A stretch of DNA of 32,126 bases, from contig JAUCBJ010002676.1 in the NCBI GenBank assembly GCA_032718475.1, forward strand, positions 1 to 32,126. The letters are read 5' to 3'. The DNA comes from Nemertoderma westbladi (Eukaryota > Animalia > Xenacoelomorpha). Position 1 is the stretch's first letter; the number at the start of each line of letters is the position of its first letter. Below the pieces are notes generated by a model that worked only from the letters and a program-made list of their open reading frames with translations, was not told the DNA's origin and did not search any database. Below are positions 4,618 through 32,126 of this stretch, one piece after another. The position numbers and the translations under genes are program-made.

Positions 4618-4702
4618 GGACTAATATTACGTACAGTATAACGGACTAATATTGCATACTGCATAACGGAATAATATTGCATACTGCATAATGACTAATA
4701 AT
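4618..4702. repeat. 25-bp tandem repeat, about 3.5 copies, in the putative LTR
   Basis: ggactaatattgcatactgcataac-like units start at 4618, 4643 and 4668. Confidence 0.8.
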
Positions 4703-4729
4703 GTGGATACAGCGCCATATACCGTAACA

Positions 4730-6939: not shown

Positions 6940-7292
6940 ATCTTTCAGTTGCGGGGGTAAACCGCTTGTGGTCGCAACTCCTACAAGCGTCTTCGCAGTA
7001 GGTCGCCGTTGGTTGATTACCTTCAGCCGACCTTGTCAGCATGTCTAGCCGTTGGTTGATTACCTTCCGCCTATCCATGGCCTACAGCCCTGCTGCCGAC
7101 TGTAGGGGTCCATTTGTTACACCCTGAACCAAGTGTGCCTCCTGGGTTAGGTTACCTAACACTGGTAGAGGAGCATCCAGTATAGACAGGGCGGGGCTTG
7201 TATCATCTCTAATGCAGATGCGTATCAAGCCTTTGCCTTCAATGGTGCCCTAGGCGCTATAGCCCTCAGTGACTTATTTAGTTGACGGGGCT

Positions 7293-9863: not shown

Positions 9864-10344
9864 CAAATACTTAAATTGGTAATAAAATAATGTGGTCCGT
9901 TGTCAATTAAGGGGAAGGAGCAGGTTACCGTGCTGAGTATGATTTACCAAAAACAATAAAATACTTTATCCATTAAACCCATTGCCATTGCCATTGCCAT
10001 TGCCATTAACGTCGTGAATACTTACAGAGATTGGTATAGGGCCTACTTACTTATACAGTATATCGCTCATTGAGACAGGGGGGGGGGGGGGGGGGGGACT
10101 GGACTGGACGCAAAACCCGCCTTGGCGAATTAATATCCCGCCTCAATGTTAAATTCTCAATTTAGGGAAATGACCAGGTTGCAGTGATACGTTATTTTAA
10201 CCAAAACAATAAACCAAACACAATAGAACAGCTTACAGTTATATTTTTGAGAGTAATAAATCAGCTATTATTTGCGTACAATTTTCCCTGGAGAGGGATG
10301 AATTTGTATTGCGTCCAGTTTCCCTATCTGCGCTCATTACTTAC

Positions 10345-11390
10345 CTTGGATAGGCAATGTCTGAAAGGATTGTTCAACTGATTGCCTGCTGTCGTCAGCA
10401 TTATTGATGGCATCAACCTGTTGGTTTATTAGCTCCTGTAGATTAACAGAGTACTGCCTGTTCAGGGACTTCGATGCAGCCTTAACTGCATTCTTGGCCG
10501 CTGTAGTCTGTTTGAGTCGGGACTCTTTCTGCGCCTTATAGAGGTCATTTCGGCACTTCTGAATTTTGTTGTCAGTCCAGGGGGCCCTTTTCCTGTTTCG
10601 AGGGTATACAGGAACTGTTTCTGCAGCTGCTAATTTAACTGCTTCTGTAAAGGCAGTATAGCCCTCACAGTGATCTGCCGCCTCAGAGGCAAGAGCCTCA
10701 TACCTGTTGCTCAGCTGTAGTGTGAAGCTGGATTTCACACTTGGCTGTTGCAACAGAGAGGACCAGTCATGCTGCGGCAAGGCAGATTTTGTTCTGCTAG
10801 CACGCAGACTAAGTCTTACCTTGGCCACAATAAGGCGGTGATCACTGGAGAAGGGTCGAAGTGTAAATGCATTACAGTCTTGTATAGAGCTCCTGTATTT
10901 CCTACGAAACAGAATATGGTCTATCTGGGACTTGTGACCACTGGGTCCATTATGAGTCCATAGCTTTCCATTTCGCTTCTTCAACTGGGCTCCAGCCGAA
11001 AACAATCCATTTCCAGAGATAAAATCCTGAAGATGGACGGAATTTCGGTTAACACTATTGCTATAGACCCAGGGCGATGTAGGTGATTGATGCAGACTTG
11101 CATTAATGTCTCCCAGGCATGTGAAGAATGCATGCTGATCCACTCCATCAGTAGCTGCTTGTAGATTGTAGCTTGTACAGTAGGTAACAGAAGTCGTCCA
11201 CATGCTCAAGCATACCATCCTTTGAGCTTATGCTCATCCGATCAGAGACTTGCTGAGGACTTTCAAAGTTAACTGTCAAAATGTTGGTCTTTCTGGAGTT
11301 AATAAAAAGACCAACACTAGAAGCAGCCTGTTCTAATGAGCTGAGGAGCCGTTGGGCTCCCTCTAGTGATTGAGTGAGGCAGTATCAGGA
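10345..11390 (-). mobile_element. Degenerate APE-endonuclease LINE fragment (RTE-like, distinct from the 4730..7425 family)
   Basis: ORF 10337..11218 contains GDINA, WTH.GPSG.KSQIDHIL, SSDHRLIVAKVRL and LSNRYEAL. It is truncated before the RT; boundaries are approximate. Confidence 0.8.
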
Positions 11391-13211
11391 GTCGAAGATA
11401 ATTGGAATCGCTAAAATCGAGGAAGCAATATAGGCCTAGTAAAATACTGTTCACATATATTTTTCATTGTATTCTCGACTATTTATTAATAGTTTAAAAA
11501 GTACTAGGCCTACTTTTTTTTCACGGTAATAATAACTTTTTTAATTTCGAAACAAAAATTGTCTGTTATCAAAAGAAACTTCCTACTTTTGTTGTGATGA
11601 TTTCGATTTGCCATTTACAAAATTCTAAACTGTTTTCGATTTCAACCAAGCTTTCAATTGAATAATAAACATTATTTAGTTCGCTTTAGCCTCAGCTATT
11701 TTTAGTTGAATGTACAGTACAGTACAGTAGTACTAAATTAGTTATTCTACAGTATGCAGGGTGAAAACACAGAAAAGTTGCCAAATTGGAGACATTTTAG
11801 GATTTAATTAAGTTTCTCAAAACCCAACATATGATATACAGTATATTCTGAAAGCTCAGAGTCTGTAGAATTCAGTGAGAGTTAAATATGAGACTTAAAT
11901 ATGACCTGGAAAAAAATACACTGCTTGTCCCTTCCTTTCCACTGCCTGTAACCATTGGATACAGGCGTGGGACAATTGTCCCTCTGTAACCTTCCATGTA
12001 AATGTAACAGGCGGTTACTAGGTGGGGCGGGGGGCGTTTTATGGTATGCATTGGTTTAGACAGGCGATGGCATTATAGGAGGGTACGTGTATTATACCAT
12101 TAGAAAGCTTGCCTGGCGGGTGATCTAAATATGACCATGGTTCCTAGTTCATATATATAAAATGACCCTAGTTCAAACAAATTTCCATTTTGCAGTTCTG
12201 CGTTTGCATAGCCTGATTACAGGGAAGGACATTTTATGGTCGGACACACAGGTTTGGAGATATTTATCAACCTTTAACTTCAAAGCTATTAAAAATGAAT
12301 TTGATTTCTGTGATTTCAAATATAATTAATTCGAACATGTAAAAAAAGTAAAGGGGGTTTTACCTATTTAGAGGTGTTTGCATTGTGCTTTCTTACACCA
12401 TATTTAACTAACGTATTGTAGTGGTACTTATCTACTGTATATGGATTTTTGTGTTGACAATCATCTGATTTATGTCTTGTTCTGCACTTCTTTGTTTTAA
12501 ACATTAAATAAAACTTTTAACATGGCTCCAAACGCCACCATAAATATAAACTAACTTTTTTATAACATAATTTATGTCATTTTTACACTCATTTATACAG
12601 CAACTAATTTAATTTGTGCAATTTCAAGTACTTATAATATATATACAATTTTTTCGTAATGTTACAATTTTGGAATAAAACTACATACATTTGTTGTAAA
12701 GTACTTTATTTACTTTTACTTTGTAAAGTGCTTTATTTTCACTCACTCACTACGTTCGGTCGTGTATCAAAAACTCTCAGATCAAAAACACTGTAAAGTG
12801 CTACTTTATACACAAGTATGTAAATAGTTATTTCTACGATGTTAAAGATTACAGTATGAACTTAGTTTGAAATTTGAATGTGTTAAAAAAGCTAAAGATA
12901 AATTGTGTTTTGGAAATTAAAGCAAAAAATAGTGTTCGTGACGTTGAAATAGAAATTCAATGAGTTTCCTTTTGAAGGTGGGTGCGGGAAAGTGGTAGGC
13001 AGGCGTACCTGTATTCGATACCACTGTTGTACTAACACTACCCAAACCCAACCCATACCCAGCTCTGCAGCTACCTGGCTACCGGTAACCTACTGACCTG
13101 GACCTAACCGTATCCCTGTATCCTGATATCAACATATCCAGATATCAGCATATAGCTGTATAGATACCGGTACTGTAACCCTGTAACCGTAACAAACTGC
13201 AGAACTGACAA

Positions 13212-13412
13212 ATGGCTCGACAACCGCCCTTACCACCAGCTATTGACTACGACAATGGCGAACGCGGTGTCTGGGACTCAGACTTCGACGACGATGAGGG
13301 CACATTCTACATGCCGAGCGAGGAGAGCGAGATCGGTTGCACCCCTCCCGTAACGAGACTAATAGAGGAGGACACATACGAGGTTCCTCACGATGTCCCC
13401 ATATCCATTCAG
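13212..13412 (+). CDS. BLNK-like: BLNK/SLP-76-family SH2 adaptor, coding exon 1 (acidic region with Tyr motifs)
   Basis: ATG at 13212 is preceded by an in-frame TGA (13206). Encodes WDSDFDDDEGTFYMP...EEDTYEVP. Donor CAG|GTTAGT at 13412/13413; 201 nt, phase 0. Confidence 0.8.
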
Positions 13413-14065
13413 GTTAGTTGGGCCTGTCAGCCTGTTGCAGCCGTGCCTCTGCCCTACCTGTATACATACAGGTATATCTGTGTTGTAGGCCTATACAGCT
13501 ATACAGCTATAGGCCTATGCTGATATGTCTGCCAGATTGAAATTTATGTTTGCTCAACATGTTTGGCGCGCATTGTAGATCCTGGCGCGCATATGGACAG
13601 ACAGTTTGGTGTGAATTTTTATAGTTTAGTGCGAATATTGGTAAAGGTTGAATACCCCTATATCCCGATCGGGATATGTAAATATCCCGATCCTGCGATC
13701 GGGATATATCAGTATATTCATATATCCCGATCGGGATAGGGAATCCTACTGTACTGACAGATGGATGTCATGTAACAGTAGTAGTAATAGTAGCTGCATT
13801 GCAGCTGCATTTTTAAGAATGCTGTGCCGTCTTATCGTCAAAATTGCGCCGCCGCAACTCCCTATCACCCATGACATTTGCTAGATCATCCGCATCTAAG
13901 GCCAGTGTCCTTTAGGAGGTGTCTCAAGAAAGTCATGGGCTGTCCACCATGCTTATTCACTCCATGAGGCTGCCAAAGCACAAGATTATGCACTGGCTGG
14001 TCCTCACGGCGAAAGCACATACACTAGGGTATATATAGGTTGATATAATTATTAATTATTCGCAG

Positions 14066-14547
14066 ACTTTCATCAAAGATGTTTCCAACCAACGGCTCCA
14101 GAAGAAGAACCTCCCGGGCGACCTCCCTCAGGAAGAGACCAGGACAACGCCACCTGGCTACGGCTTCGATACCAAACCCGCCGCAGGGGGGCGTCTCTCT
14201 ATAATGGAACGGAAGAAACTGTTGGAAGCCAACAGCGGTACGGGATCCTTCGAGAAACGGCCTAGTAAGCCGCCCAAACCGTTCAACCAGAAGCTCTCCT
14301 CCACCCCGGTAGCCAATCAACGGGCTGCATTCCAACGCGACCAGGAGCCGCGGCGGGATTCCACGCCTACTCTGCCGCAACCTCAAACCCTCGGGGCCGC
14401 ACGCAAGATGTCTGTGCCGGTGGCGTTACCAGGACGCCCAGGCAGCGCGCGACATCTATCGTCCAGACCCCAGCAATCCGGTGGTCTACTCGCCAACCTT
14501 CCAATCGGTCATACTAGAGGGGGGCAGCAGCCCGAAGATTCCCATTG
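14066..14547 (+). CDS. BLNK-like: BLNK/SLP-76-family adaptor, coding exon 2 (Pro-rich)
   Basis: Acceptor ttattcgcag| at 14065, in frame with ORF 14204 (TFIKDVSNQR...KRPSKPPKP...EDSH). Donor TG|GTTAGT at 14547/14548; 482 nt, phase 2. Confidence 0.8.
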
Positions 14548-17500
14548 GTTAGTTAAAGTCATGATTCTTATTGGTTAGTGAAAGGCGTTGATTCTTATTG
14601 GTTAGTGAAAGGCGTTGTTTCTTATTGGTTAGTGAAAGGCGTTGATTCTTATTGGTTAGTGAAAGGCGTTGATTCTTATTGGTTAGTGAAAGGCGTTGAT
14701 TCTTATTGGTTAGAGAAAGGCGTTGATTCGTATTGGTTAGTGAAAGGCGTTGTTTCTTATTGGTTAGTGAAAGGCGTTGTTTCTTATTGGTTAGAGAAAG
14801 GCGTTGATTCTTATTGGTTAGTGAAAGGCGTTGTTTCTTATTGGTTAGTGAAAGGCGTTGTTTCTTATTGGTTAGAGAAAGGCGTTGATTCTTATTGGTT
14901 AGTGAAAGGCGTTGATTCTTATTGGTTAGAGAAAGGCGTTGATTCGTATTGGTTAGTGAAAGGCGTTGATTCTTATTGGTTAGTGAAAGGCGTTGATTCT
15001 TATTGGTTAGTGAAAGGCGTTGATTCTTATTGGTTAGTGAAAGGCGTTGATTCTTATTGGTTAGTGAAAGGCGTTGATTCTTATTGGTTAGTGAAAGGCG
15101 TTGATTGTTATTGGTTAGTGAAAGGCGTTGATTCTTATTGGTTAGTGAAAGGCGTTGATTCTTATTGGTTAGTGAAAGGCGTTGATTCTTATTGGTTAGT
15201 GAAAGGCGTTGATTCTTATTGGTTAGTGAAAGGCGTTGATTCTTATTGGTTAGTGAAAGGCGTTGATTCTTATTGGTTAGTGAAAGGCGTTGTTTCTTAT
15301 TGGTTAGTGAAAGGCGTTGATTCTTATTGGTTAGTGAAAGGCGTTGATTCTTATTGGTTAGTGAAAGGCGTTGATTCTTATTGGTTAGTGAAAGGCGTTG
15401 ATTCTTATTGGTTAGTGAAAGGCGTTGATTCTTATTGGTTAGTGAAAGGCGTTGATTCTTATTGGTTAGTGAAAGGCGTTGATTCTTATTGGTTAGAGAA
15501 AGGCGTTGATTCTTATTGGTTAGTGAAAGGCGTTGATTCTTATTGGTTAGTGAAAGGCGTTGATTCTTATTGGTTAGTGAAAGGCGTTGATTCTTATTGG
15601 TTAGTGAAAGGCGTTGATTCTTATTGGTTAGTGAAAGGCGTTGATTCTTATTGGTTAGTGAAAGGCGTTGATTCTTATTGGTTAGTGAAAGGCGTTGATT
15701 CTTATTGGTTAGTGAAACGCGTTGATTCTTATTGGTTAGTGAAAGGCGTTGATTCTTATTGGTTAGAGAAAGGCGTTGATTCTTATTGGTTAGTGAAAGG
15801 CGTTGATTCTTATTGGTTAGTGAAAAGCGTTGATTCTTATTGGTTAGTGAAAGGCGTTGATTCTTATTGCTTAGTGAAAGGCGTTGATTCTTATTGGTTA
15901 GTGAAAGGCGTTGATTCTTATTGGTTAGTGAAAGGCGTTGATTCTTATTGGTTAGTGAAAGGCGTTGATTCTTATTGGTTAGTGAAACGCGTTGATTCTT
16001 ATTGGTTAGTGAAAGGCGTTGTTTCTTATTGGTTAGTGAAACGCGTTGATTCTTATTGGTTAGTGAAAGGCGTTGATTCTTATTGGTTAGTGAAAGGCGT
16101 TGATTCTTATTGGTTAGTGAAAGGCGTTGATTCTTATTGGTTAGTGAAAGGCGTTGATTCTTATTGGTTAGTGAAAGGCGTTGATTCTTATTGGTTAGTG
16201 AAAGGCGTTGATTCTTATTGGTTAGAGAAAGGCATTGATTCTTATTGGTTAGTGAAAGGCGTTGATTCTTATTGGTTAGTGAAAGGCGTTGATTCTTATT
16301 GGTTAGTGAAAGGCGTTGATTCTTATTGGTTAGTTAGTGAAAGGCGTTGATTCTTATTGGTTAGTTAGTGAAAGGCGTTGATTCTTATTGGTTAGTGAAA
16401 GGCGTTGATTCTTATTGGTTAGAGAAAGGCGTTGATTCTTATTGGTTAGTGAAAGGCGTTGATTCTTATTGGTTAGAGAAAGGCGTTGATTCTTATTGGT
16501 TAGTGAAAGGCGTTGATTCTTATTGGTTAGTGAAAGGCGTTGATTCTTATTGGTTAGTGAAAGGCGTTGATTCTTATTGGTTAGTGAAAGGCGTTGATTC
16601 TTATTGGTTAGAGAAAGGCGTTGTTTCTTATTGGTTAGTGAAAGGCGTTGATTCTTATTGGTTGGTGAAACGCGTTGATTCTTATTGGTTAGTGAAAGGC
16701 GTTGATTCTTATTGGTTAGAGAAAGGCGTTGATTCTTATTGGTTAGTGAAAGGCGTTGATTCTTATTGGTTAGTGAAAGGCGTTGATTCTTATTGGTTAG
16801 TGAAACGCGTTGATTCTTATTGGTTAGTGAAAGGCGTTGATTCTTATTGGTTAGAGAAAGGCGTTGATTCTTATTGGTTAGTGAAAGGCGTTGATTCTTA
16901 TTGGTTAGTGAAAGGCGTTGATTCTTATTGGTTAGAGAAAGGCGTTGATTCTTATTGGTTAGTGAAAGGCGTTGATTCTTATTGGTTAGTGAAAGGCGTG
17001 GATTCTTATTGGTTAGTGAAAGGCGTTGATTCTTATTGGTTAGTGAAAGGCGTTGATTCTTATTGGTTAGTTAGTGAAAGGCGTTGATTCTTATTGGTTA
17101 GTTAGTGAAAGGCGTTGATTCTTATTGGTTAGTGAAAGGCGTTGATTCTTATTGGTTAGAGAAAGGCGTTGATTCTTATTGGTTAGTGAAAGGCGTTGAT
17201 TCTTATTGGTTAGAGAAAGGCGTTGATTCTTATTGGTTAGTGAAAGGCGTTGATTCTTATTGGTTAGTGAAAGGCGTTGATTCTTATTGGTTAGTGAAAG
17301 GCGTTGATTCTTATTGGTTAGTGAAAGGCGTTGATTCTTATTGGTTAGTGAAAGGCGTTGATTCTTATTGGTTAGTGAAAGGCGTTGATTCTTATTGGTT
17401 AGTGAAAGGCGTTGATTCTTATTGGTTAGTGAAAGGCGTTGATTCTTATTGGTTAGTGAAAGGCGTTGATTCTTATTGGTTAGTGAAAGGCGTTGATTCT

Positions 17501-20500
17501 TATTGGTTAGTGAAAGGCGTTGATTCTTATTGGTTAGTGAAAGGCGTTGATTCTTATTGGTTAGTGAAAGGCGTTGATTCTTATTGGTTAGTGAAAGGCG
17601 TTGATTCTTATTGGTTAGTGAAAGGCGTTGATTCTTATTGGTTAGTGAAAGGCGTTGATTCTTATTGGTTAGTGAAAGGCGTTGTTTCTTATTGGTTAGT
17701 GAAAGGCGTTGATTCTTATTGGTTAGTGAAAGGCGTTGATTCTTATTGGTTAGTGAAAGGCGTTGATTCTTATTGGTTAGTGAAAGGCGTTGATTCTTAT
17801 TGGTTAGTGAAAGGCGTTGATTCTTATTGGTTAGTGAAAGGCGTTGATTCTTATTGGTTAGTGAAAGGCGTTGATTCTTATTGGTTAGAGAAAGGCGTTG
17901 ATTCTTATTGGTTAGTGAAAGGCGTTGATTCTTATTGGTTAGTGAAAGGCGTTGATTCTTATTGGTTAGTGAAAGGCGTTGATTCTTATTGGTTAGTGAA
18001 AGGCGTTGATTCTTATTGGTTAGTGAAAGGCGTTGATTCTTATTGGTTAGTGAAAGGCGTTGATTCTTATTGGTTAGTGAAAGGCGTTAATTCTTATTGG
18101 TTAGTGAAACGCGTTGATTCTTATTGGTTAGTGAAAGGCGTTGATTCTTATTGGTTAGAGAAAGGCGTTGATTCTTATTGGTTAGTGAAAGGCGTTGATT
18201 CTTATTGGTTAGTGAAAGGCGTTGATTCTTATTGGTTAGTGAAAGGCGTTGATTCTTATTGCTTAGTGAAAGGCGTTGATTCTTATTGGTTAGTGAAAGG
18301 CGTTGATTCTTATTGGTTAGTGAAAGGCGTTGATTCTTATTGGTTAGTGAAAGGCGTTGATTCTTATTGGTTAGTGAAACGCGTTGATTCTTATTGGTTA
18401 GTGAAAGGCGTTGTTTCTTATTGGTTAGTGAAACGCGTTGATTCTTATTGGTTAGTGAAAGGCGTTGATTCTTATTGGTTAGTGAAAGGCGTTGATTCTT
18501 ATTGGTTAGTGAAAGGCGTTGATTCTTATTGGTTAGTGAAAGGCGTTGATTCTTATTGGTTAGTGAAAGGCGTTGATTCTTATTGGTTAGTGAAAGGCGT
18601 TGATTCTTATTGGTTAGAGAAAGGCATTGATTCTTATTGGTTAGTGAAAGGCGTTGATTCTTATTGGTTAGTGAAAGGCGTTGATTCTTATTGGTTAGTG
18701 AAAGGCGTTGATTCTTATTGGTTAGTGAAAGGCGTTGATTCTTATTGGTTAGTTAGTGAAAGGCGTTGATTCTTATTGGTTAGTTAGTGAAAGGCGTTGA
18801 TTCTTATTGGTTAGTGAAAGGCGTTGATTCTTATTGGTTAGAGAAAGGCGTTGATTCTTATTGGTTAGTGAAAGGCGTTGATTCTTATTGGTTAGAGAAA
18901 GGCGTTGATTCTTATTGGTTAGTGAAAGGCGTTGATTCTTATTGGTTAGTGAAAGGCGTTGATTCTTATTGGTTAGTGAAAGGCGTTGATTCTTATTGGT
19001 TAGTGAAAGGCGTTGATTCTTATTGGTTAGAGAAAGGCGTTGTTTCTTATTGGTTAGTGAAAGGCGTTGATTCTTATTGGTTGGTGAAACGCGTTGATTC
19101 TTATTGGTTAGTGAAAGGCGTTGATTCTTATTGGTTAGAGAAAGGCGTTGATTCTTATTGGTTAGTGAAAGGCGTTGATTCTTATTGGTTAGTGAAAGGC
19201 GTTGATTCTTATTGGTTAGTGAAACGCGTTGATTCTTATTGGTTAGTGAAAGGCGTTGATTCTTATTGGTTAGAGAAAGGCGTTGATTCTTATTGGTTAG
19301 TGAAAGGCGTTGATTCTTATTGGTTAGTGAAAGGCGTTGATTCTTATTGGTTAGAGAAAGGCGTTGATTCTTATTGGTTAGTGAAAGGCGTTGATTCTTA
19401 TTGGTTAGTGAAAGGCGTTGATTCTTATTGGTTAGTGAAAGGCGTTGATTCTTATTGGTTAGTGAAAGGCGTTGATTCTTATTGGTTAGTTAGTGAAAGG
19501 CGTTGATTCTTATTGGTTAGTTAGTGAAAGGCGTTGATTCTTATTGGTTAGTGAAAGGCGTTGATTCTTATTGGTTAGAGAAAGGCGTTGATTCTTATTG
19601 GTTAGTGAAAGGCGTTGATTCTTATTGGTTAGAGAAAGGCGTTGATTCTTATTGGTTAGTGAAAGGCGTTGATTCTTATTGGTTAGTGAAAGGCGTTGAT
19701 TCTTATTGGTTAGTGAAAGGCGTTGATTCTTATTGGTTAGTGAAAGGCGTTGATTCTTATTGGTTAGAGAAAGGCGTTGTTTCTTATTGGTTAGTGAAAG
19801 GCGTTGATTCTTATTGGTTAGTGAAAGGCGTTGTTTCTTATTGGTTAGTGAAAGGCGTTGTTTCTTATTGGTTAGTGAAAGGCGTTGATTCTTATTGGTT
19901 AGTGAAAGGCGTTGATTCTTATTGGTTAGTGAAAGGCGTTGATTCTTATTGGTTAGTGAAAGGCGTTGATTCTTATTGGTTAGTGAAACGCGTTGATTCT
20001 TATTGGTTAGTGAAAGCTGAAAGGCGTTGATTCTTATTGGTTAGTGAAAGGCGTTGTTTCTTATTGGTTAGTGAAAGCTGAAAGGCGTTGATTCTTATTG
20101 GTTAGTGAAAGGCGTTGATTCTTATTGGTTAGTGAAAGGCGTTGATTCTTATTGGTTAGTGAAAGGCGTTGATTCTTTTTGGTTAGTGAAACGCGTTGAT
20201 TCTTATTGGTTAGTGAAAGCTGAAAGGCGTTGATTCTTATTGGTTAGTGAAAGGCGTTGATTCTTATTGGTTAGTGAAATGCGTTGATTCTTATTGGTTA
20301 GTGAAAGGCGTTGATTCTTATTGGTTAGTGAAAGGCGTTGATTCTTATTGGTTAGTGAAAGGCGTTGATTCTTATTGGTTAGTGAAAGGCGTTGATTCTT
20401 ATTGGTTAGTGAAAGGCGTTGATTCTTATTGGTTAGTGAAAGGCGTTGATTCTTATTGGTTAGTGAAACGCGTTGATTCTTATTGGTTAGTGAAAGCTGA

Positions 20501-23500
20501 AAGGCGTTGATTCTTATTGGTTAGTGAAAGGCGTTGTTTCTTATTGGTTAGTGAAAGGCGTTGATTCTTATTGGTTAGTGAAACGCGTTGATTCTTATTG
20601 GTTAGTGAAAGCTGAAAGGCGTTGATTCTTATTGGTTAGTGAAAGGCGTTGATTCTTATTGGTTAGTGAAAGGCGTTGATTCTTATTGGTTAGAGAAAGG
20701 CGTTGATTCTTATTGGTTAGTGAAACGCGTTGATTCTTATTGGTTAGTGAAAGGCGTTGATTCTTATTGGTTAGTGAAAGGCGTTGATTCTTATTGGTTA
20801 GTGAAAGGCGTTGATTCTTATTGGTTAGTGAAACGCGTTGATTCTTATTGGTTAGTGAAACGCGTTGATTCTTATTGGTTAGTGAAAGCTGAAAGGCGTT
20901 GATTCTTATTGGTTAGTGAAAGGCGTTGATTCTTATTGGTTAGTGAAACGCGTTGATTCTTATTGGTTAGTGAAAGCTGAAAGGCGTTGATTCTTATTGG
21001 TTAGTGAAAGGCGTTGATTCTTATTGGTTAGTGAAAGGCGTTGATTCTTATTGGTTAGAGAAAGGCGTTGATTCTTATTGGTTAGTGAAAGCTGAAAGGC
21101 GTTGATTCTTATTGGTTAGTGAAAGGCGTTGATTCTTATTGGTTATTGAAAGGCGTTGATTCTTATTGGTTAGAGAAAGGCGTTGATTCTTATTGGTTAG
21201 TGAAAGGCGTTGATTCTTATTGGTTAGTGAAAGGCGTTGATTCTTATTGGTTAGTGAAACGCGTTGATTCTTATTGGTTAGTGAAAGCTGAAAGGCGTTG
21301 ATTCTTATTGGTTAGTGAAAGGCGTTGATTCTTATTGGTTAGTGAAAGGCGTTGATTCTTATTGGTTAGTGAAAGGCGTTGATTCTTATTGGTTAGTGAA
21401 AGGCGTTGATTCTTATTGGTTAGTGAAAGGCGTTGATTCTTTTGGTTAGTGAAACGCGTTGATTCTTATTGGTTAGTGAAAGCTGAAAGGCGTTGATTCT
21501 TATTGGTTAGTGAAAGGCGTTGTTTCTTATTGGTTAGTGAAAGGCGTTGATTCTTATTGGTTAGTGAAACGCGTTGATTCTTATTGGTTAGTGAAAGCTG
21601 AAAGGCGTTGATTCTTATTGGTTAGTGAAAGGCGTTGATTCTTATTGGTTAGTGAAAGGCGTTGATTCTTATTGGTTAGAGAAAGGCGTTGATTCTTATT
21701 GGTTTGTGAAAGGCGTTGATTCTTATTGGTTAGTGAAAGGCGTTGATTCTTATTGGTTAGTGAAAGGCGTTGATTCTTATTGGTTAGTGAAAGGCGTTGA
21801 TTCTTATTGGTTAGTGAAAGGCGTTGATTCTTATTGGTTAGTGAAACGGCGTTGATTCTTATTGGTTAGTGAAAGGCGTTGATTCTTATTGGTTAGTGAA
21901 AGGCGTTGATTCTTATTGGTTAGTGAAAGGCGTTGATTCTTATTGGTTAGTGAAAGGCGTTGATTCTTATTGGTTAGTGAAAGGCGTTGATTCTTATTGG
22001 TTAGTGAAAGGCGTTGATTCTTATTGGTTAGTGAAAGGCGTTGATTCTTATTGGTTAGTGAAAGGCGTTGATTCTTATTGGTTAGTGAAAGGCGTTGAAT
22101 CTTATTGGTTAGTGAAAGGCGTTGATTCTTATTGGTTAGTGAAAGGCGTTGATTCTTATTGGTTACCCCTAGTGAAAGGCGTTGAATCTTATTGGTTAGT
22201 GAAAGGCGTTGATTGTTATTGGTTAGTGAAAGGCGTTGATTCTTATTGGTTAGTGAAAGGCGTTGATTCTTATTGGTTAGTGAAAGGCGTTGATTCTTAT
22301 TGGTTAGTGAAAGGCGTTGATTCTTATTGGTTAGTGAAAGGCGTTGTTTCTTATTGGTTAGAGAAAGGCGTTGATTCTTATTGGTTAGTGAAAGGCGTTG
22401 TTTCTTATTGGTTAGAGAAAGGCGTTGATTCTTATTGGTTAGTGAAAGGCGTTGATTCTTATTGGTTAGTGAAAGGCGTTGTTTCTTATTGGTTAGAGAA
22501 AGGCGTTGATTCTTATTGGTTAGTGAAAGGCGTTGATTCTTATTGGTTAGTGAAAGGCGTTGTTTCTTATTGGTTAGAGAAAGGCGTTGATTGTGAAAGG
22601 CGTTGTTTCTTATTGGTTAGAGAAAGGCGTTGATTCTTATTGGTTAGTGAAAGGCGTTGATTCTTATTGGTTAGTGAAAGGCGTTGATTCTTATTGGTTA
22701 GTGAAAGGCGTTGATTCTTATTTGTTAGTGAAAGGCGTTGATTCTTATTGGTTAGTGAAAGGCGTTGATTCTTATTGGTTAGTTAGTGAAAGGCGTTGAT
22801 TCTTATTGGTTAGTGAAAGGCGTTGATTCTTATTGGTTAGTGAAAGGCGTTGTTTCTTATTGGTTAGAGAAAGGCGTTGATTCTTATTGGTTAGTGAAAG
22901 GCGTTGATTCTTATTGGTTAGTGAAAGGCGTTGATTCTTATTGGTTAGTGAAAGGCGTTGTTTCTTATTGGTTAGAGAAAGGCGTTGATTCTTATTGGTT
23001 AGTGAAAGGCGTTGATTCTTATTGGTTAGTGAAAGGCGTTGATTCTTATTGGTTAGTGAAAGGCGTTGATTCTTATTGGTTAGTGAAAGGCGTTGTTTCT
23101 TATTGGTTAGAGAAAGGCGTTGATTCTTATTGGTTAGTGAAAGGCGTTGATTCTTATTGGTTAGTGAAAGGCGTTGATTCTTATTGGTTAGTGAAAGGCG
23201 TTGATTCTTATTGGTTAGTGAAAGGCGTTGTTTCTTATTGGTTAGAGAAAGGCGTTGATTCTTATTGGTTAGTGAAAGGCGTTGTTTCTTATTGGTTAGA
23301 GAAAGGCGTTGATTCTTATTGGTTAGTGAAAGGCGTTGATTCTTATTGGTTAGTGAAAGGCGTTGTTTCTTATTGGTTAGAGAAAGGCGTTGATTCTTAT
23401 TGGTTAGTGAAAGGCGTTGATTCTTATTGGTTAGTGAAAGGCGTTGATTCTTATTGGTTAGTGAAAGGCGTTGATTCTTATTGGTTAGTGAAAGGCGTTG

Positions 23501-24620
23501 ATTCTTATTGGTTAGTGAAAGGCGTTGATTCTTATTGGTTAGTGAAAGGCGTTGATTCTTATTGGTTAGTGAAAGGCGTTGATTCTTATTGGTTAGTGAA
23601 AGGCGTTGATTCTTATTGGTTAGTGAAAGGCGTTGATTCTTATTGGTTAGAGAAAGGCGTTGATTCTTATTGGTTAGTGAAAGGCGTTGATTCTTATTGG
23701 TTAGTGAAAGGCGTTGATTCTTATTGGTTAGTGAAAGGCGTTGTTTCTTATTGGTTAGAGAAAGGCGTTGATTCTTATTGGTTAGTGAAAGGCGTTGATT
23801 CTTATTGGTTAGTGAAAGGCGTTGTTTCTTATTGGTTAGAGAAAGGCGTTGATTCTTATTGGTTAGTGAAAGGCGTTGATTCTTATTGGTTAGTGAAAGG
23901 CGTTGTTTCTTATTGGTTAGAGAAAGGCGTTGATTCTTATTGGTTAGTGAAAGGCGTTGATTCTTATTGGTTAGTGAAAGGCGTTGATTCTTATTGGTTA
24001 GTGAAAGGCGTTGTTTCTTATTGGTTAGAGAAAGGCGTTGATTCTTATTGGTTAGTGAAAGGCGTTGATTCTTATTGGTTAGTGAAAGGCGTTGATTCTT
24101 ATTGGTTAGTGAAAGGCGTTGATTCTTATTGGTTAGTGAAAGGCGTTGATTCTTATTGGTTAGTTAGTGAAAGGCGTTGATTCTTATTGGTTAGTGAAAG
24201 GCGTTGATTCTTATTGGTTAGTGAAAGGCGTTGATTCTTATTGGTTAGTGCAAGGCGTTGATTCTTATTGGTTAGTGAAAGGCGTTGATTCTTATTGGTT
24301 AGTGAAAGGCGTTGATTCTTATTGGTTAGTGCAAGGCGTTGATTCTTATTGGTTAGAGAAAGGCGTTGATTCTTATTGGTTAGAGAAAGGCGTTGATTCT
24401 TATTGGTTAGTGAAAGGCGTTGATTCTTATTGGTTAGTGCAAGGCGTTGATTCTTATTGGTTAGTGAAAGGCGTTGATTCTTATTGGTTAGTGAAAGGCG
24501 TTGATTCTTATTGGTTAGAGAAAGGCGTTGATTCTTATTGGTTAGAGAAAGGCGTTGATTCTTATTGGTTAGTGCAAGGCGTTGATTCTTATTGGTTAGA
24601 GAAAAGCGTTGATTCTTATT
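14537..24620. repeat. About 10.1-kb minisatellite, ~370 copies of 27-bp GATTCTTATTGGTTAGTGAAAGGCGTT, filling intron 2
   Basis: Directly visible. Variants include gag for gtg, gtttct for gattct, cgc for ggc, +4 (ttag), +7 (gctgaaa) and gtgcaa. Copy number is estimated as length/27. Confidence 0.98.
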
Positions 24621-24690
24621 ATTTAGGTTTATTTAATAGCTTTGATTATTTGTTGGTTTTGTTATGTAGCTGTTTCTCATTATATCTTAG

Positions 24691-24864
24691 GGAGCCATCT
24701 GCGGGGTCTGCCTCCACCCAAGGTCTATCATCCAGACAGCGGTTCGACCCGCTGCCCCCAACCCCCGCTAACGATCGGGCACCGTGTCCGCTACCCACCG
24801 AGTCCCCAGAGCGGATTATCCCCGTCCAACAACAGTACAAACCACCCGGGATCGACTCCCCTAG
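24691..24864 (+). CDS. BLNK-like: BLNK/SLP-76-family adaptor, coding exon 3 (Pro-rich)
   Basis: Acceptor tatatcttag| at 24690; G completes TG|G (Trp), then EPSAGS...PLPPTP...GIDSP. Donor AG|GTAAGT at 24864/24865; 174 nt, phase 2 to 2. Confidence 0.8.
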
Positions 24865-25640
24865 GTAAGTCGAAGTAACTAATATACCCCTCATACTAAT
24901 AGTACCACCTCTCCTTAAATCGTTTTACCGAGAGCGAGCGCTAATCCTATACCAGAAGAATAACTTACGTTACGTTACGACTAAGAGTTAATAAGTATAT
25001 TGCAGAACATAGTTTTCCTATTATAATTTAATAATTTATAGTGTAACTACAGTACCGGTAGATAGATTTAACGCTGTCACGGCGTGGTAAAACATCCACT
25101 TTCCGAACACCATTCTGGCAGTTCCGTCCGGACGGGGGGGGGGGGGGGCTGTCGTTTCGTTATATGTTAAAAAAAGTTTTACTTAAAAATACATATTATT
25201 TTATAATAAATGTTTATTACAACGGTTAGAAATTTATGTTTTTACATTCCGTATATCGTACTACGGTACCTGAATCATCTGGTAGTCTAGTAGAAAATAG
25301 GCTGGGGGCGGAAATTTGGTACAACTGGGATTGTCTAATGTTTTAGGTTAGTAATTATGTCTACTGGACTGTAGTGGTGATGGTGTCAACTTTCCACTGC
25401 AGGGGGGGGGGGGGGGGGGGGTGGTGTCGTCGAAAGTTTTCAAAAGGTATCTTTTATGAAATCGCCAATAATAATTAATAGAAACTATATTCAGGAATAT
25501 TTTGTCCTTTAAAAGTCTCGCTCAGAGGAAACAGTGTGTGAAGCAAAGTTAACATTCTGGTGAGGGTGTGGGGGAGGTCATTCAATATGCTAGGCTTCTA
25601 TTGGGCTTATATTTGTATACGTTACCTTGACTACCTATAG

Positions 25641-25986
25641 AAATCGAGCCATGGAGAACCAACTTTGGTACGACCCCCGGCTGAAATCGGACGAAGCTAA
25701 ACTCAAACTAATTGGCGTTGGGGTTGAAGGCTGCTTCGTGGTCCGTCCCAACAGTCTGCGTCCCGGCATCGACTACTCCCTGTCTCTCTACTTCCGGGGC
25801 GGGGTCCACCATCTCATCATTGGACTCCGCGACGACGGCAGTTACGCCCTCGGCACCGTGAAGGACTTCGAACCCCGGTTCCCCACCGTCGCTGACCTCA
25901 TCGAGCACCACAAGGCCGTGGCCATCAACATCAATAAAGTGGGGGAGTTAACCCTGACGAAACATTTACAGAGAGGCATGCGATAA
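25641..25986 (+). CDS. BLNK-like: BLNK/SLP-76-family adaptor, last coding exon (SH2 domain)
   Basis: Acceptor cctatag| at 25640; A completes AG|A (Arg). SH2 sequence WY...A...L...EGCFVVRPNS...YSLSLYF...VHHLII...YALG...F.TVADLIEHH; TAA at 25984-25986. Total CDS is 1203 nt (400 aa). Confidence 0.9.
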
Positions 25987-26644
25987 TATAATTTAAATCT
26001 CTCAACGTTAGTCTTCTTCACACTAAATTTACAGTGCCATTACTAATTTATTTTATAGTGTTTGTGCCTTTATTCTTTGTACATCCTACACGGCCACTGA
26101 TGGATGTTAAATTCCCCCAACTTATTATTGTTTTAACGATATTATTCGAATCCAAATCAACATTATATCGCCAACATCGTTTTATCCTTTATTTAATAGA
26201 CTAAATCAACTGTGTGTTTAAATTTCACATCACGAATGAAATATTGTATTTTAAATTTCCTTTATTAGGGTGTCGTATAAACTTCATATATCTGGAATTG
26301 ACCGCTATAGATTATAATAATATGTTACAAAGGATAATATGTCAAATTTTGTGATTATAAGTTTAAAGTACAGTTAGTTAATTATTTCCTAAAAGTTGAT
26401 TAACCTGCTATAAAATAATTGATTTGCAATAATTAGGATTTAATTATATTAATTTATCATTCGTGTCGCCTGCCGGAAAATTGTGGTTAATCTAATGCAA
26501 AAGATTTCCTCTTATTATATTATTATGTAAAGATATTTGGTGCTACTCTGAGTAACATTCAAACGTATTGTTATGGTTTCTCTTGGGAGTAGCTGAGTAC
26601 CACACTGTTATGGGTTGGTTTGGTTATCCGTACATAAATGTGTT

Positions 26645-26892
26645 GCGCGCTGGTCTGTGCGGGATGTAGGCCTACTCACATGGCGCACGCTGGTCTGTGC
26701 GGGCTGTAGGCCTACTCACATGGCGCACGCTGGTCTGTGCGGGCTGTAGGCCTACTCACATGGCGCATGCAGGTCTGTGCGGGATGTAGGTCTATATTCA
26801 CATGGCGCACGCTGGTCTGTGCGGGATGTAGGCCTACTCACATGGCGCCCCACTCTGGTCTCTGCGTGATGTAGGTCTACATGCATGGCGCT
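26645..26892. repeat. 40-bp minisatellite, about 6 copies
   Basis: cgctggtctgtgcgggatgtaggcctactcacatggcgca; tggtctgtgc at 26651, 26691 and 26731, degenerating to the right. Confidence 0.92.
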
Positions 26893-28091
26893 CGCCGGCT
26901 GATTTTTACATCATCTCCCCTCGTTTCAGATTTTATTATGTATCATACTTCGTTATCTTTACTAATTGGTACTGAATTTCCTGTATTTCTTAAATGATAA
27001 TTCGTGAATCCTCTTCCTTCGACAATGTTTTCATAGGAGTTCAGAAGGGTAGAGATGTGTGGAATATTTTATTATTTTTTTATAACATGCAGTGCATACG
27101 GGAGGGACGCCTTCTACGAGACTTTTAGGAAATTTTGATTGTCGGTCGTGAAATTGATATAGTATTGAGGTGATAGAGTGGGTTGGCACGGTGATTTGGG
27201 ATTATCGTTGTATTGAATCATACGGAAATATGTATTGGGTTGTTTTTTGTTTTTGTTACATGATATATTACTGCATATAATACGTTCATAATAGTTACAT
27301 TTGTACTGTAATAATAGTTTGTATTCACGTATCGTTGTAATTTTTAGTCGAAACGGAATTCGTTATTGTCATAAATATCATTCAGTGTTATAGTTTTGTC
27401 TTTATTATCAGTAGCAATATACCTAAACTAGTTGTAGATAAATGTATACACGTCGGGTTCCACACGTAATAGTTACGCTTATTTTGTAATAATTGTTTTT
27501 AATTATTATATTTAATTTAATTAGTTACTGTTTATAATATATACTTTATTTTATGATTGTTTAAAGTAATTTTTAGTGTTCGCAATTATTACAGTATTTT
27601 AATCGTGCTCTGTAAATTGTGCTGCAGTAAGCCAAACGAGATAAAATATATTTTTTATTGTAATCGAATACATATATATTTTTAATTACAATTCATGGCA
27701 ATTCTTTCGAGTTGTAAAAAGTGCAAACTATACATTTGGGGTGCGATACGCGCTGGCTTTGGGTGAATCCCTTCCCGCACGTATCGCACACGTACGGCCG
27801 ATCACATGAGTGCGTTCGCCTGTGTGTCTTTAGGTTGCCTAGTCGAGAGAAACGTTTCTCACATCGTTGCAGAGCATTTTACAATATTCATAGTCCCTGT
27901 GCGTAAAAGTATTAGACAGCTGTATGAAATTTATAGTTAATAAAGTTTTTAAAAAAGTCCATAAATTGTCTGCGCCTCTTAGCGACGCAGTCAGTTGTTT
28001 TAAATTTAAAAACAGAGTCAAAACTCTCATTTTAAGCATAACTTTTTAGTCCATTTTATCTAGCATTATTTACCTAATATTAAAAAAAAAA

Positions 28092-28882
28092 CAAGCTTGC
28101 CAGCCGCGAGCTGGCAATAATGGACGGATCTATGGCCCATGTGAAGAATACCAGACTTTCTGCCGTTATATTTCACTTTGCAGTTACCCCCATGTGAAGT
28201 ATACCAGGTTTTAACAAAAAAAAACAGGTTACAGAAGGGCTGAATCTAACCAAATCAATATACGAATTAGTACAACATGTAAAGGTTATAAGACAGAAAT
28301 AAGCGATAAGAATAAATATATCTTAATAAAGATGAATTTAAAAGAATAACAAATCTTCATATATAAAATTCCAATAAAAAGTCGTCCGAAAAGTGAAATC
28401 CGAAATGTGAAGTATTCTTCACATGGGCGTTATAACCTGTACATATACTAATTCGTTTATTGTTTTGGTTAGATTCAGCCCTTCTGTAACCTGTGTTTTT
28501 GGTGAAAACCTGGTATTCTTCACAGGGGGGTAACTGCAAAGTGAAATATAACGGCAGAAAGTATGGTATTCTTCACATGGGCCCATAATTTTGATTGAGT
28601 GAATTCTATGAATATGATCGCTCATTCTAGGATTAATTTCACTATTGCTAGGTAACCAACAATTCCCTCACAACCAAAACCTTGCATATACACAACTAGG
28701 TCCGATAACGAACCTATCATCAAAGTTTCATCCAATTCCAGTTACATTCACATTTTCATTCACATAACAGTTACATTTCATACAATTCCAGTATTCTTGC
28801 ACATTAAGTGCAAGAAGTTGTGTGGACAAACAAACAAACAAACACACGTGAGAAATAAGGACATCCATGATGGATCCGTCCA
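28092..28882 (-). mobile_element. Non-autonomous Helentron-type element (HINE / DINE-1-like)
   Basis: Minus-strand order: 5' subTIR TGGACGGATC with partial inverted repeat (28882-28859), (TTTG)n microsatellite (about 28826-28843), core, 3' subTIR (plus-strand tggacggatc 28121-28130), GC-rich hairpin ttgccagc/gctggcaa (28097-28117), then CTTG and a T-run. Confidence 0.7.
28131..28586. mobile_element. MITE with about 160-bp TIRs and a probable TA target duplication, nested in the HINE
   Basis: ta|tggcccatgtgaagaataccagactttctgccg...ggttataa mirrors ttataacc...cggcagaaagtatggtattcttcacatgggccca|ta. Confidence 0.85.
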
Positions 28883-29280
28883 ACATCCATGATGGATCCG
28901 TCCAACATCCATGATGGATCCGTCCAACATCCCCTGATGGATCCGTCCAACATCCATGATGGATCCGTCCAACATCCCCCTGATGGATCCGTCCAACATC
29001 CCCATGATGGATCCGTCCAACATCCATGATGGATCCGTCCAACATCCCCATGATGGATCCGTCCAACATCCATGATGGATCCGTCCAACATCCATGATGG
29101 ATCCGTCCAACATCCCCCTGATGGATCCATCCAACATCCCCATGATGGATCCGTCCAACATCCATGATGGATCCGTCCAACATCCATGATGGATCCATCC
29201 AACATCCCCATGATGGATCCGTCCAACACCCATGATGGATCCGTCCAACATCCACGATGGATCCGTCCAACATCCCCCTG
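28861..29280. repeat. 22/24-bp satellite array 1 (ACATCCATGATGGATCCGTCCA), about 18 copies
   Basis: Directly visible. Variants have longer C-runs (ccccat, ccccct). The unit has the internal palindrome atccat-g-atggat. Confidence 0.95.
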
Positions 29281-29282
29281 TG

Positions 29283-31151
29283 TGTGTGACACCGCATCAT
29301 TTCAAGCCGTTAAAAAGGCTCTCTGTTCTCCGCCAATTCTAGCCAATTTCAACCCTGAACTGCCTGTAATACTTCAAACAGATGCTTCCCGTACCCGCGG
29401 ATTAGGTTTTGCCCTCCTCCAGAAATCCCTGGATGGCCATCTACTATTAATACAGTGTGGGTCAAGATTTGTATCGGAAACGGAGGCCAGGTATGCTATG
29501 GTCGAATTAGAACTGTTAGCTGTCACTTGGGCAGTGAATAAATGTCGTTTATATGTATTAGGTTTGCCACAATTTACATTAGTAGTTGATCATAAACCCT
29601 TGATATCATTGCTAAATGATAAAACCTTGGAGATGGTAGACAACCCTCGTCTCGTTCGACTTAAAGAACGTTTGATACCATATTCATTTACCGCAGTATG
29701 GAAGAGGGGAAGCGAACATTACATTCCGGATGCATTATCTCGTGCTCCCATTCAGGACCCGACTGCTGAAGACCAGATCTCTGAGGAAGATTTAACTGGC
29801 TTAATGTGTGCACGAATATGCATAAATGAAATGAGGGATAATTCAGATGAGATTGTCGACCCCATATTGAAGGACTTAAAGAATGTTGCAGATGATGACC
29901 CAGACCATAAACAGTTAATTAATTTCATTACAAACGGATTCCCAAAAACATTGTCAAATTTAACCACAGAACTCAGGAAATTTTGGAAAATTCGTGATGA
30001 TCTTCATCTGTCTGATGACAACGTTATCATGTACGGCTGTCGTTTGGTTATACCTCAGCTTAAACGCAAAGATATATTAATGTTTCCCCATGAATCGCAC
30101 CAGGGAATGGAGAGAACAAAGAGAAGGGCGCGCCAAACAGTCTATTGGCATAAATGTAGATATTGTCAATCTTGTACAAGAATGTTCCCGCTGTCAGGAG
30201 CGCCGCCCATCCCTCCCCGCTGAACCAGAACTAACAGATCCACCTCCAACACGACCATTCCAGGAGGTTGCTGCTGATTTTTTCGAGTGTGCTGGAAAAC
30301 ACTTTCTGACATACGTGGACCGTTATTCTGGATGGCCAGATGTTGTTTCATTTGGTAAACGTTTTCCAACTACCTCATTACTAAAAACTGCCCTTCGTCG
30401 AATCTTTAGTTACACTGGGATCCCGGTAAAGTTGAGATCTGATGGTGGTTCCCAGTTTACTTCAAGTGAGTTTGAAAACTTTGCGCGTGATTGGAAATTC
30501 AACCATATTTTGAGTGCTCCCCGATATCCTCAGAGTAACGGACTTGCTGAGTCTGCAGTTAAAGTGATGTCTCATTTAGTTGCAACCTCAACATCCAATG
30601 GAAATTTGGACATTGATGAATTTCATAAGGGTCTTATCGAATATCGAAATACGCCGAGGGAACATGGTCAATCCCCGGCACAATTATTGTATGGTAGACC
30701 ACTTTGCTCATGTGTACCCACCCACCATTCTGCTTTTGATAGAAAGTGGAAAGAGATTAACATGAGTTTAGATGATAAAGAAACGTGTAATACCGAAGCG
30801 CAATATAGGTCTCAAAAGACACGTAATCTTAACCCATTAGATGTTGGCAATATTGTTTGGATTCAAGATAGACCTTCTAAACATTGGAAGCGATCTGGTA
30901 GGGTCGTTTCACGCAATGGCCGTAACTACACTATTAAGTTGCCAAGTGGTCGTGGTGTTTTATGGCGCAATAGACGTCACATTCGACGGAAGTGCGGCTA
31001 CAAGAATGAGAACTCAATGAACGCTAAGAAGAATATCACCTTCTCAAATACCGAGGAAATACAAGAGTTTAAAAGACAGGACACTCCTGACTCTATTAAT
31101 GGAAGTATTCTCAAACCGATATTGCGCCATAGCCCACGTATAAAGAAATGA
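29283..31151 (+). mobile_element. pol: Ty3/Gypsy pol fragment (RNase H and integrase), frameshifted; Mag-like
   Basis: RNase H: LQTDAS..GLGFALLQ, YAMVELELLAVTWA, VVDHKPL, DALSR. Integrase: HESHQG...CSRC zinc finger, DFF/VDRYSGW, SDGGSQF, PQSNGLAE. Frameshift at about 30147 (TVYW/GIN). RNH-then-INT order indicates Gypsy. Gag, protease and RT core are missing. Confidence 0.93.
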
Positions 31152-31505: not shown

Positions 31506-32126
31506 GATCCGTCCAACATCCCCATGATGGATCCGTCCAACATCCATGATGGATCCGTCCAACATCCATGACGGATCCGTCCAACATCCCCCTGATGGAT
31601 CCGTCCAACATCCCCATGATGGATCCGTCCAACATCCATGATGGATCCGTCCAACATCCATGATGGATCCGTCCAACATCCATGATGGATCCGTCTCCAA
31701 CATCCATGATGGATCCGTCCAACATCCATGATGGATCCGTCCAACACCCATGACGGATCCGTCCAACATCCCCCTGATGGATCCGTCCAACATCCCCATG
31801 ATGGATCCGTCCAACATCCATGATGGATCCGTCCAACATCCATGATGGATCCGTCTCCAACATCCATGATGGATCCGTCTCCAACATCCATGATGGATCC
31901 GTCCAACATCCATGATGGATCCGTCCAACATCCCCCTGATGGATCCGTCCAACATCCCCATGATGGATCCGTCCAACATCCATGATGGATCCGTCCAACA
32001 TCCATGACGGATCCGTCCAACATCCCCCTGATGGATCCGTCCAACATCCCCATGATGGATCCGTCCAACATCCATGATGGATCCGTCCAACATCCATGAT
32101 GGATCCGTCCAACATCCATGATGGAT
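31506..32126. repeat. 22/24-bp satellite array 2 (same family and orientation as array 1), at least ~27 copies, runs off the window
   Basis: Same unit as array 1, with extra variants gacggatcc and ccgtctcca. Confidence 0.95.

What the first reader, a model, noticed from the sequence alone, without database searches (positions are those of the whole stretch)
14537..24690. A 10-kb intron built from ~370 tandem copies of its own 5' splice site
Seen: the predicted exon-2/intron-2 junction GATTCCCATTG|GTTAGTTAAAGTCAT aligns with the repeat unit GATTCTTATTG|GTTAGTGAAAGGCGTT. Each unit equals the last 11 exonic nt plus the first 16 intronic nt. Only about 70 nt (24621-24690) of the 10,143-nt intron is non-repetitive. 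Intron 1 is predicted to use the same GTTAGT donor, and most copies keep the same TTG|GTTAGT context as the predicted donor. Inference: a ~100-nt ancestral intron grew about 100-fold by amplifying its donor, so the spliceosome must choose the most distal of hundreds of equivalent U1 sites. The array could act as a U1 sponge, a decoy array, or a copy-number-dependent expression control.
Basis: partly seen in the sequence, partly recalled or inferred. Interest (0 to 1): 0.85.

Follow-up and report, generated by a model that had tools for sequence, protein, structure and literature searches.

The report
Splice-donor "mirage" repeat in SH2 gene
In an animal signalling gene, the end of exon 2 with its splice signal is repeated about 370 times over 10 kb of the next intron, yet the one spliced RNA assembly seen (from another individual) uses the first signal, so this is likely a tolerated, large example of a repeat type already known from lancelet, chicken and human genes.

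Summary
The array is real: 27-bp unit, 369 copies, 14537-24620. A spliced contig from run X4 confirms all three introns, including 14548-24690 (10,143 nt, 99.3% repeat), and uses the 5'-most donor. The host gene encodes a 400-aa SH2 adaptor resembling SLP-76/BLNK. 307 of the 368 later units keep the same TTG|GTTAGT, with predicted U1 pairing no weaker than the used site. Any other donor would truncate the protein before the SH2 domain. Substitutions neither spare nor target the donor (6 of 18 in 9 of 27 positions), so nothing here supports a sponge or decoy. The arrangement is published: human F7, 6-16, CBS and LMNB2 minisatellites, lancelet 'mirages', chicken 'exon stuttering'. F7 experiments show that the most upstream donor wins. 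This scan has noted the same thing in other genes of this genome (8 notes shown, one with about 2,100 copies) and in other genomes. Gaps: the RNA is from another individual whose intron is unseen; no long reads, genome or outgroup, so '100-fold growth' is untested. Verdict: new, large member of a known kind; low interest.

The parts
13026..13412 (+). Exon 1 (5' UTR from at least 13026; ATG at 13212; acidic, tyrosine-bearing N-terminus)
   Evidence: X4 contig covers 13026-13409 and skips 653 nt GT..AG; ORF
13413..14065 (+). Intron 1, 653 nt, donor CAG|GTTAGT; holds a high-copy dispersed element at about 13790-14017
   Evidence: tables 2, 5, 7
14066..14547 (+). Exon 2, 482 nt, proline-rich; its last 11 nt begin the first array unit
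   Evidence: X4 contig covers 14063-14548
14537..14562 (+). First, divergent unit (26 nt) spanning the junction; holds the donor that is used (GT at 14548)
   Evidence: 21 of 27 matches to the consensus; junction
14563..24620 (+). 368 further 27-bp units plus a partial last one; 241 identical to the consensus, 307 with TTG|GTTAGT, 52 with TTG|GTTAGA; a near-exact 2,419-bp block duplication in the 5' half
   Evidence: array-edge and high-depth unit contigs in DNA runs X1-X3
24621..24690 (+). Unique 70-nt 3' end of intron 2, T-rich, ending in the acceptor AG
24691..24864 (+). Exon 3, 174 nt, phase 2-2
   Evidence: X4 contig covers 24690-24861 and skips 776 nt GT..AG
25641..26350 (+). Exon 4: SH2 domain, stop at 25984-25986, 3' UTR running past 26350
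   Evidence: Pfam SH2 E 1.9e-9; X4 contigs 25638-26071 and 26069-26350

Best explanation
This is a tandem array of a 27-bp piece spanning the exon 2/intron 2 border of an expressed SH2-adaptor gene, likely a neutral 'mirage' minisatellite that is tolerated because splicing likely commits to the first donor after the exon. Shown: the array, its register on the junction, and use of the first donor in one spliced contig. Inferred: a local duplication of the junction seeded it; slippage and unequal exchange or gene conversion expanded and homogenised the inner units (66% identical, one 2.4-kb block duplicated) while the exon-anchored copy stayed apart. Inferred: the first donor wins by position (exon-anchored, 5'-to-3' selection as in human F7), not by strength. 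Inferred: rare use of later donors would mostly be hidden, since every donor from the third on reads through an in-frame stop at 14576-14578 upstream of two junctions (a decay target by general knowledge).
For: Register on the junction beyond chance. Spliced contig uses 14548; X4 has zero depth in the array bins and 1 of its 38 records lies only partly on the right flank. Later donors have the same 9-mer, predicted U1 pairing of -6.0 against -5.2 kcal/mol for the used site, and are predicted less paired (0.52-0.76 against 0.44 unpaired), so strength does not explain the choice. 6 of 18 distinct substitutions fall in the 9 donor positions of 27, the neutral expectation. Only donor 14548 of 370 GTTAGT/GTTAGA sites yields the 400-aa protein. 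Divergent edge unit with homogeneous interior matches lancelet mirages (PMC3087553). F7 mutagenesis shows that the most upstream functional donor is chosen even over stronger ones (PMC1557585).
Against: The RNA contig is from sample S3, which differs at 4 sites in the 3' UTR; its own intron 2 was not seen and could be short. One contig from one study; contigs drop rare isoforms. The neutrality test has only 18 events and the unit parsing constrains the last positions. The F7 work concerns 4-8 spare donors in mammalian cells, not about 300 in an invertebrate. No genome, so strict locus specificity is not shown.
Confidence: 0.8

Rival explanations
1. The array tunes expression: spare donors bind U1 or are used at some rate, sending part of the transcripts to decay or to an SH2-less product, so copy number sets the adaptor's dose.
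For: 307 intact donors, predicted slightly stronger and more open than the used one. Donor 14574 would give a frameshifted product stopping at codon 309 in the last exon, so it would likely escape decay. Human 6-16 and CBS use the next two pseudo-sites (as cited in PMC1557585).
Against: No X4 contig holds array sequence (depth 0). No sign of selection on the donor; the commonest variant (52 units) weakens +6. This donor pairs with U1 more weakly than the gene's other two (-8.2, -10.5), a poor design for a sponge. A paper search for decoy minisatellite donors listed 6 papers, none on this by title or abstract start except F7.
Confidence: 0.08
2. An unrelated minisatellite landed or arose at the exon edge and only happens to resemble, or has supplied, the donor (edge effect).
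For: The junction copy differs from the consensus at 6 of 27 positions. A 13-base match to the unit lies in another element at about 2610-2622 on the other strand. No outgroup shows the ancestral junction.
Against: The match covers coding bases in register (9 of 11; 6 of 8 outside the donor triplet) and stops sharply upstream. Depth is of the order of one array, not a genome-wide satellite: two X1 unit contigs imply 0.7-0.9 or 3.5-4 times the assembled array, depending on which flank sets single-copy depth, while the dispersed element in intron 1 sums to over a million.
Confidence: 0.06
3. The array exists but its 10-kb length is inflated by assembly error.
For: A 2,419-bp block is repeated almost exactly (exact runs of 765 and 348 bases). 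No laid record spans the array, and depth is noisy: X2 and X3, one sample, give about five-fold different array-to-flank ratios.
Against: X1 and X2 contigs run without differences up to both array edges and break there. X1 unit contigs have depth 7,464 and 7,214 against flanks of 8-44. The duplicated block is not fully identical (19 differences in 1,441 bases compared).
Confidence: 0.06

Closest known systems
Human F7 intron 7 37-bp VNTR, with the 6-16 (IFI6), CBS intron 13, lamin B2 and PDGF intron 4 arrays it cites (Borensztajn et al. 2006, PMC1557585; read: abstract, synopsis, introduction, and 8 matched passages, three of them from the discussion)
   Same: First unit spans the exon/intron border; later units repeat the exact donor; the most upstream donor is used.
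   Different: About 370 units against 5-9 (F7), 15-20 (CBS) or 25 pseudo-sites (6-16); here the array is 99% of the intron; the junction copy has diverged from the consensus; no sign so far of the second or third donor being used.
Lancelet 'mirage' minisatellites: Adh3, globins BflGb6/BflGb9, troponin C, PGBD5 (PMC3087553, 7 passages; PMC3902484, 1 passage; the Adh3 and troponin C papers were not read)
   Same: [quoted passage not shown]
   Different: Globin examples have 3-6 units; this has about 370. Length instability was shown there and is not shown here.
Chicken dot-chromosome 'exon stuttering' (Hron et al. 2026, PMC12954441; read: abstract, section 7 whole, 11 passages)
   Same: Exon edge plus splice site copied in tandem into the adjacent intron, strictly local, coding sequence intact; spans of 112 bp to 23.6 kb cover this size.
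   Different: 1-44 detected copies (median 4) with exon parts of 20-187 bp and imperfect repeats on GC-rich chromosomes; here a short, highly regular, 37% GC unit with only 11 exonic bases.
SLP-76 (LCP2)/BLNK-type adaptors (host gene)
   Same: Acidic N-terminus with tyrosines, proline-rich middle, single C-terminal SH2; 5 of 10 top-hit clusters looked up carry a BLNK or LCP2 name.
   Different: No SAM domain detected, while 2 of 8 relatives scanned have one; best hits are only 29-45% identical in the SH2; orthology not tested.

Membership tests
Mirage / junction-spanning minisatellite | Tandem repeat whose first unit spans a real exon-intron border | tested here: met
   Array starts 11 nt inside exon 2; junction seen in a spliced contig
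Mirage / junction-spanning minisatellite | Later units repeat the splice signal | tested here: met
   307 of 368 later units carry TTG|GTTAGT
Mirage / junction-spanning minisatellite | Normal mRNA is made from the exon-adjacent site | tested here: met
   One X4 contig, donor 14548; from another individual whose array was not seen
Mirage / junction-spanning minisatellite | Inner units homogenised, edge unit set apart | tested here: met
   241 of 368 units identical to the consensus; junction copy 21 of 27
Mirage / junction-spanning minisatellite | Local origin, confined to the locus | tested here: inconclusive
   No genome. Depth in X1 fits 0.7-4 times the assembled array, far below a dispersed repeat, but a second locus is not excluded
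Mirage / junction-spanning minisatellite | Copy number varies between individuals | not testable with these tools
   Only assembled contigs, none spanning the array; depth ratios differ five-fold within one sample
Recursive-splicing (ratchet) array | AG directly followed by GT inside the intron | tested here: not met
   In the unit variants listed, AG is followed by TG, TT, AG or GC, not by GT (read by eye)
U1 decoy or sponge | Spare donors kept by selection and bound by U1 in vivo | tested here: inconclusive
   No depletion of substitutions in the donor, 6 of 18; binding cannot be tested here
SLP-76/BLNK adaptors (host gene) | C-terminal SH2 after acidic tyrosine motifs and a proline-rich region | tested here: met
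SLP-76/BLNK adaptors (host gene) | N-terminal SAM domain (family feature recalled; seen in 2 of 8 relatives) | tested here: not met
   No Pfam hit on exon 1; in-frame stop before the ATG; contig begins at 13026
SLP-76/BLNK adaptors (host gene) | Orthology by phylogeny | not tested
   No tree was built

The most novel reading that the evidence does not exclude
This animal has a mutational process that seeds and inflates tandem arrays specifically at exon-intron borders across its genome (for example repair or slippage tied to splicing-coupled R-loops or exon-edge chromatin), and its spliceosome follows a first-donor rule strict enough to ignore 300 or more equal or better sites at 27-nt spacing. 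The locus would then be one of a set of natural, extreme tests of how the first 5' splice site is chosen. The genome-wide part rests on unchecked scan notes, not on my own calls.
Probability: 0.2. Interest if true: 0.6.

Novelty: new member of a known kind. Interest (0 to 1): 0.2.

Why it matters
As a single locus it adds a large example to a described class: roughly 8 to 15 times more donor copies than the largest counts I read (44 in chicken, 25 in human 6-16), though within the chicken size range. If array-bearing animals splice cleanly at the first donor, it is a natural long-range test of position-based 5' splice site choice, which the F7 work showed for only a handful of sites. The more interesting question, why such arrays recur at exon edges in this genome, needs the whole genome and not this window.

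Tried and rejected
No whole genome is held, so a genome-wide search for the unit was not possible. The run search listed no holder on record as RNA; X4, labelled 'DNA?', behaves as RNA because its contig skips all three introns. 4 of the 8 listed runs were laid (the four that hold the stretch); both lays covered the flanks with about two units each, not the array's interior, and their tables were cut (only the longest or best-supported rows shown). The word-indexed protein search with the SH2 exon found 118 candidates and none at E <= 0.001; the full HMMER search found 179 proteins at E <= 0.001, none at 1e-30, so no close relative gave an outgroup intron. Array translation (9-aa repeats open on both strands) was rejected as coding: read-through from exon 2 meets a stop at 14576-14578 and X4 has no array contig. 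Recursive splicing was rejected: no AG-GT in the unit. Hairpin masking of spare donors was rejected: they are predicted more open than the used site. A CCAAT-box reading (363 ATTGG in the array; motif recalled) was considered; it follows from the ATTG|G junction itself and has no support. Depth as copy number is rough: X1's left flank is four times deeper than its right, unexplained. X1 and X2/X3 show no differences from the window in the flanks and may not be independent animals. Paper searches; supplements were not opened, and the chicken paper's supplementary list could hold larger arrays.

Full report
Observation. Tandem Repeats Finder reports one array at 14537-24620, period 27, 369.4 copies, 94% matches. 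Parsing gives a 26-nt first unit and 368 further units, 241 of them identical to the consensus. The 9-mer TTG|GTTAGT occurs 308 times counting the first unit, and TTG|GTTAGA 52 times. The last 70 nt before 24690 are unique. The window has no N.

Host gene. Four exons (13212-13412, 14066-14547, 24691-24864, 25641-25986) give an uninterrupted 400-aa frame with an acidic N-terminus, a proline-rich middle and a C-terminal SH2 domain (Pfam E 1.9e-9). A full HMMER search with the SH2 exon found 179 proteins at E <= 0.001, 8 at 1e-10 and none at 1e-30. Of 10 top clusters looked up, 5 carry a BLNK or LCP2 name (sea cucumber, sea slug, priapulid, sponge, mite), 2 other names and 3 none. I call it SLP-76/BLNK-like; it lacks a detectable SAM domain and orthology was not tested. 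The organism was not identified beyond 'animal'.

The junction is real. The run search listed 8 runs, 4 holding the stretch, none on record as RNA. Laying those 4 showed that X4 has a 1,474-nt contig of depth 285 that covers 13026-13409 and 14063-14548, then 24690-24861 and 25638-26071, with complementary record coordinates. It skips 653 and 776 nt at GT..AG, and its loose end before 24690 reads the end of exon 2. The two letters shared at the middle joint allow three cuts, and only 14547/24691 has GT..AG. So intron 2 is 14548-24690 (10,143 nt, 99.3% array) and the first donor is used. X4 has zero depth in the bins that hold array units, and 1 of its 38 records lies only partly on the right flank. 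Limits: this is one contig from one study, contigs drop rare isoforms, and sample S3 differs from the window at 4 sites in the 3' UTR, so it is another individual or haplotype whose intron 2 I could not see.

The likeness to the junction is not chance. The last 11 exonic bases match the unit at 9 of 11; none of 1,182 other exonic 11-mers reaches 9. The first 21 bases match at 18 of 21, above all 43,870 windows outside the array on both strands at any rotation (best 17). The 54 bases further upstream match at 17 of 54. The junction copy agrees with the consensus at 21 of 27, so 'equals' in the finding is too strong.

The array exists in DNA runs and is not a genome-wide satellite. X1 and X2 contigs run without differences to both array edges and break there. 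Two X1 contigs of the unit have depth 7,464 and 7,214. Assuming they carry the consensus, which the assembled array holds 222 and 228 times at those phases, that is 32-34 per copy: 0.7-0.9 times the assembled array if single-copy depth is X1's left flank (36-44), 3.5-4 times if it is the right flank (8-9). For contrast, the dispersed element in intron 1 sums to 1.1-2.2 million in X1-X3 against 25,695, 5,608 and 265 for the array bin. The tool warns that summed depth is no copy number, and X2 and X3 from one sample disagree about five-fold, so this fixes only the order of magnitude. A 2,419-bp block is duplicated nearly exactly in the 5' half, which fits unequal exchange but could also be an assembly error.

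How it likely works. Donor strength does not pick the first site: predicted U1 pairing is -5.2 kcal/mol for the used site and -6.0 for the consensus copies, against -8.2 and -10.5 for introns 1 and 3; the copies are also predicted less base-paired (0.52-0.76 against 0.44 unpaired) (the U1 motif was recalled). Position is the remaining explanation. In human F7, 50 constructs showed that the most upstream functional donor is chosen and that later identical or stronger ones do not compete (PMC1557585); the same paper notes that earlier duplication experiments gave opposing results. That the rule holds here is inferred. Of 370 GTTAGT or GTTAGA sites, only 14548 gives the full protein; 14574 gives a frameshift ending at codon 309 in the last exon; the other 368 read through a stop at 14576-14578 and would likely be degraded, which could hide errors. 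Among 27-nt units there are 18 distinct substitutions; 6 fall in the 9 donor positions, exactly the share expected without selection, and the commonest one (52 units) weakens the donor. The count is small, but it gives no support for a kept decoy or for purging.

Comparison with what is known. PMC1557585 (abstract, synopsis, introduction, passages) describes F7 and cites 6-16, CBS, lamin B2 and PDGF arrays whose first unit spans the donor; 6-16 and CBS also use the next two sites. PMC3087553 (7 passages) and PMC3902484 (1 passage) describe lancelet 'mirages' with normal splicing, length instability and edge units left out of homogenisation. PMC12954441 (abstract, section 7, passages) reports 236 chicken introns with exon stuttering, 1-44 copies, spans up to 23,555 bp. 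This locus meets four tested features of that class; locus specificity is inconclusive and length variation untestable here. It has more copies than any count I read in those papers. A search for minisatellite donors acting as U1 decoys listed 6 papers, of which only F7 was on the topic by title and abstract start.

Earlier scan notes (unchecked AI notes). 126 findings in at least 39 genomes hold the search words, and 18 of 19 notes on this genome fit 'intron repeat splice'; the 8 shown all describe junction arrays in other genes, up to about 2,100 copies. None lies near this window. They gave me the term 'mirage' and two paper leads, which I then read; I did not check their loci. If they hold, the array is a habit of this genome and not a device of this gene.

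Verdict. Observation confirmed, first-donor use shown once, functional readings unsupported, ancestral size untested. New, large member of a known kind; interest 0.2. The boldest open reading is a genome-wide process that seeds arrays at exon edges together with a very strict first-donor rule (probability 0.2, interest 0.6 if true).

Noticed in passing
window 13790-14017: High-copy dispersed element (SINE- or MITE-like) inside intron 1; thousands of contigs in each of X1-X3 match it, summed depth over a million.
   Followed up: partly
window 28861-29275 and 31506-32126: The same 22-bp minisatellite flanks both sides of a frameshifted LTR-retrotransposon pol fragment (RNase H and integrase, 29168-31151), as if the element had inserted into the array.
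   Followed up: no
window 26648-26895: A separate 40-bp minisatellite, 6 copies, just downstream of the gene; the window holds at least four unrelated arrays.
   Followed up: no
window 4627-7035 and 10337-11384, minus strand: Two broken LINE-like fragments; the first has a Pfam endonuclease hit followed by reverse-transcriptase-like pieces (read by eye).
   Followed up: no
window 2-1330, minus strand: Open 443-aa frame with a charged coiled-coil repeat and no Pfam hit, possibly the gag-like start of a retroelement running off the window.
   Followed up: no
window about 2610-2622, minus strand: A 13-base match to the array unit around the ATTGG (CCAAT-like) motif, the best match outside the array.
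   Followed up: partly
window 12900-14590 against 24575-26350: In run X1 the flank left of the array is about four times deeper (36-44) than the right flank (8-9); X2 and X3 do not show this. Unexplained: library bias or extra copies of exons 1-2.
   Followed up: no
window 25134-25149 and 25401-25421: Two long G runs in intron 3 at which short-read contigs break.
   Followed up: no
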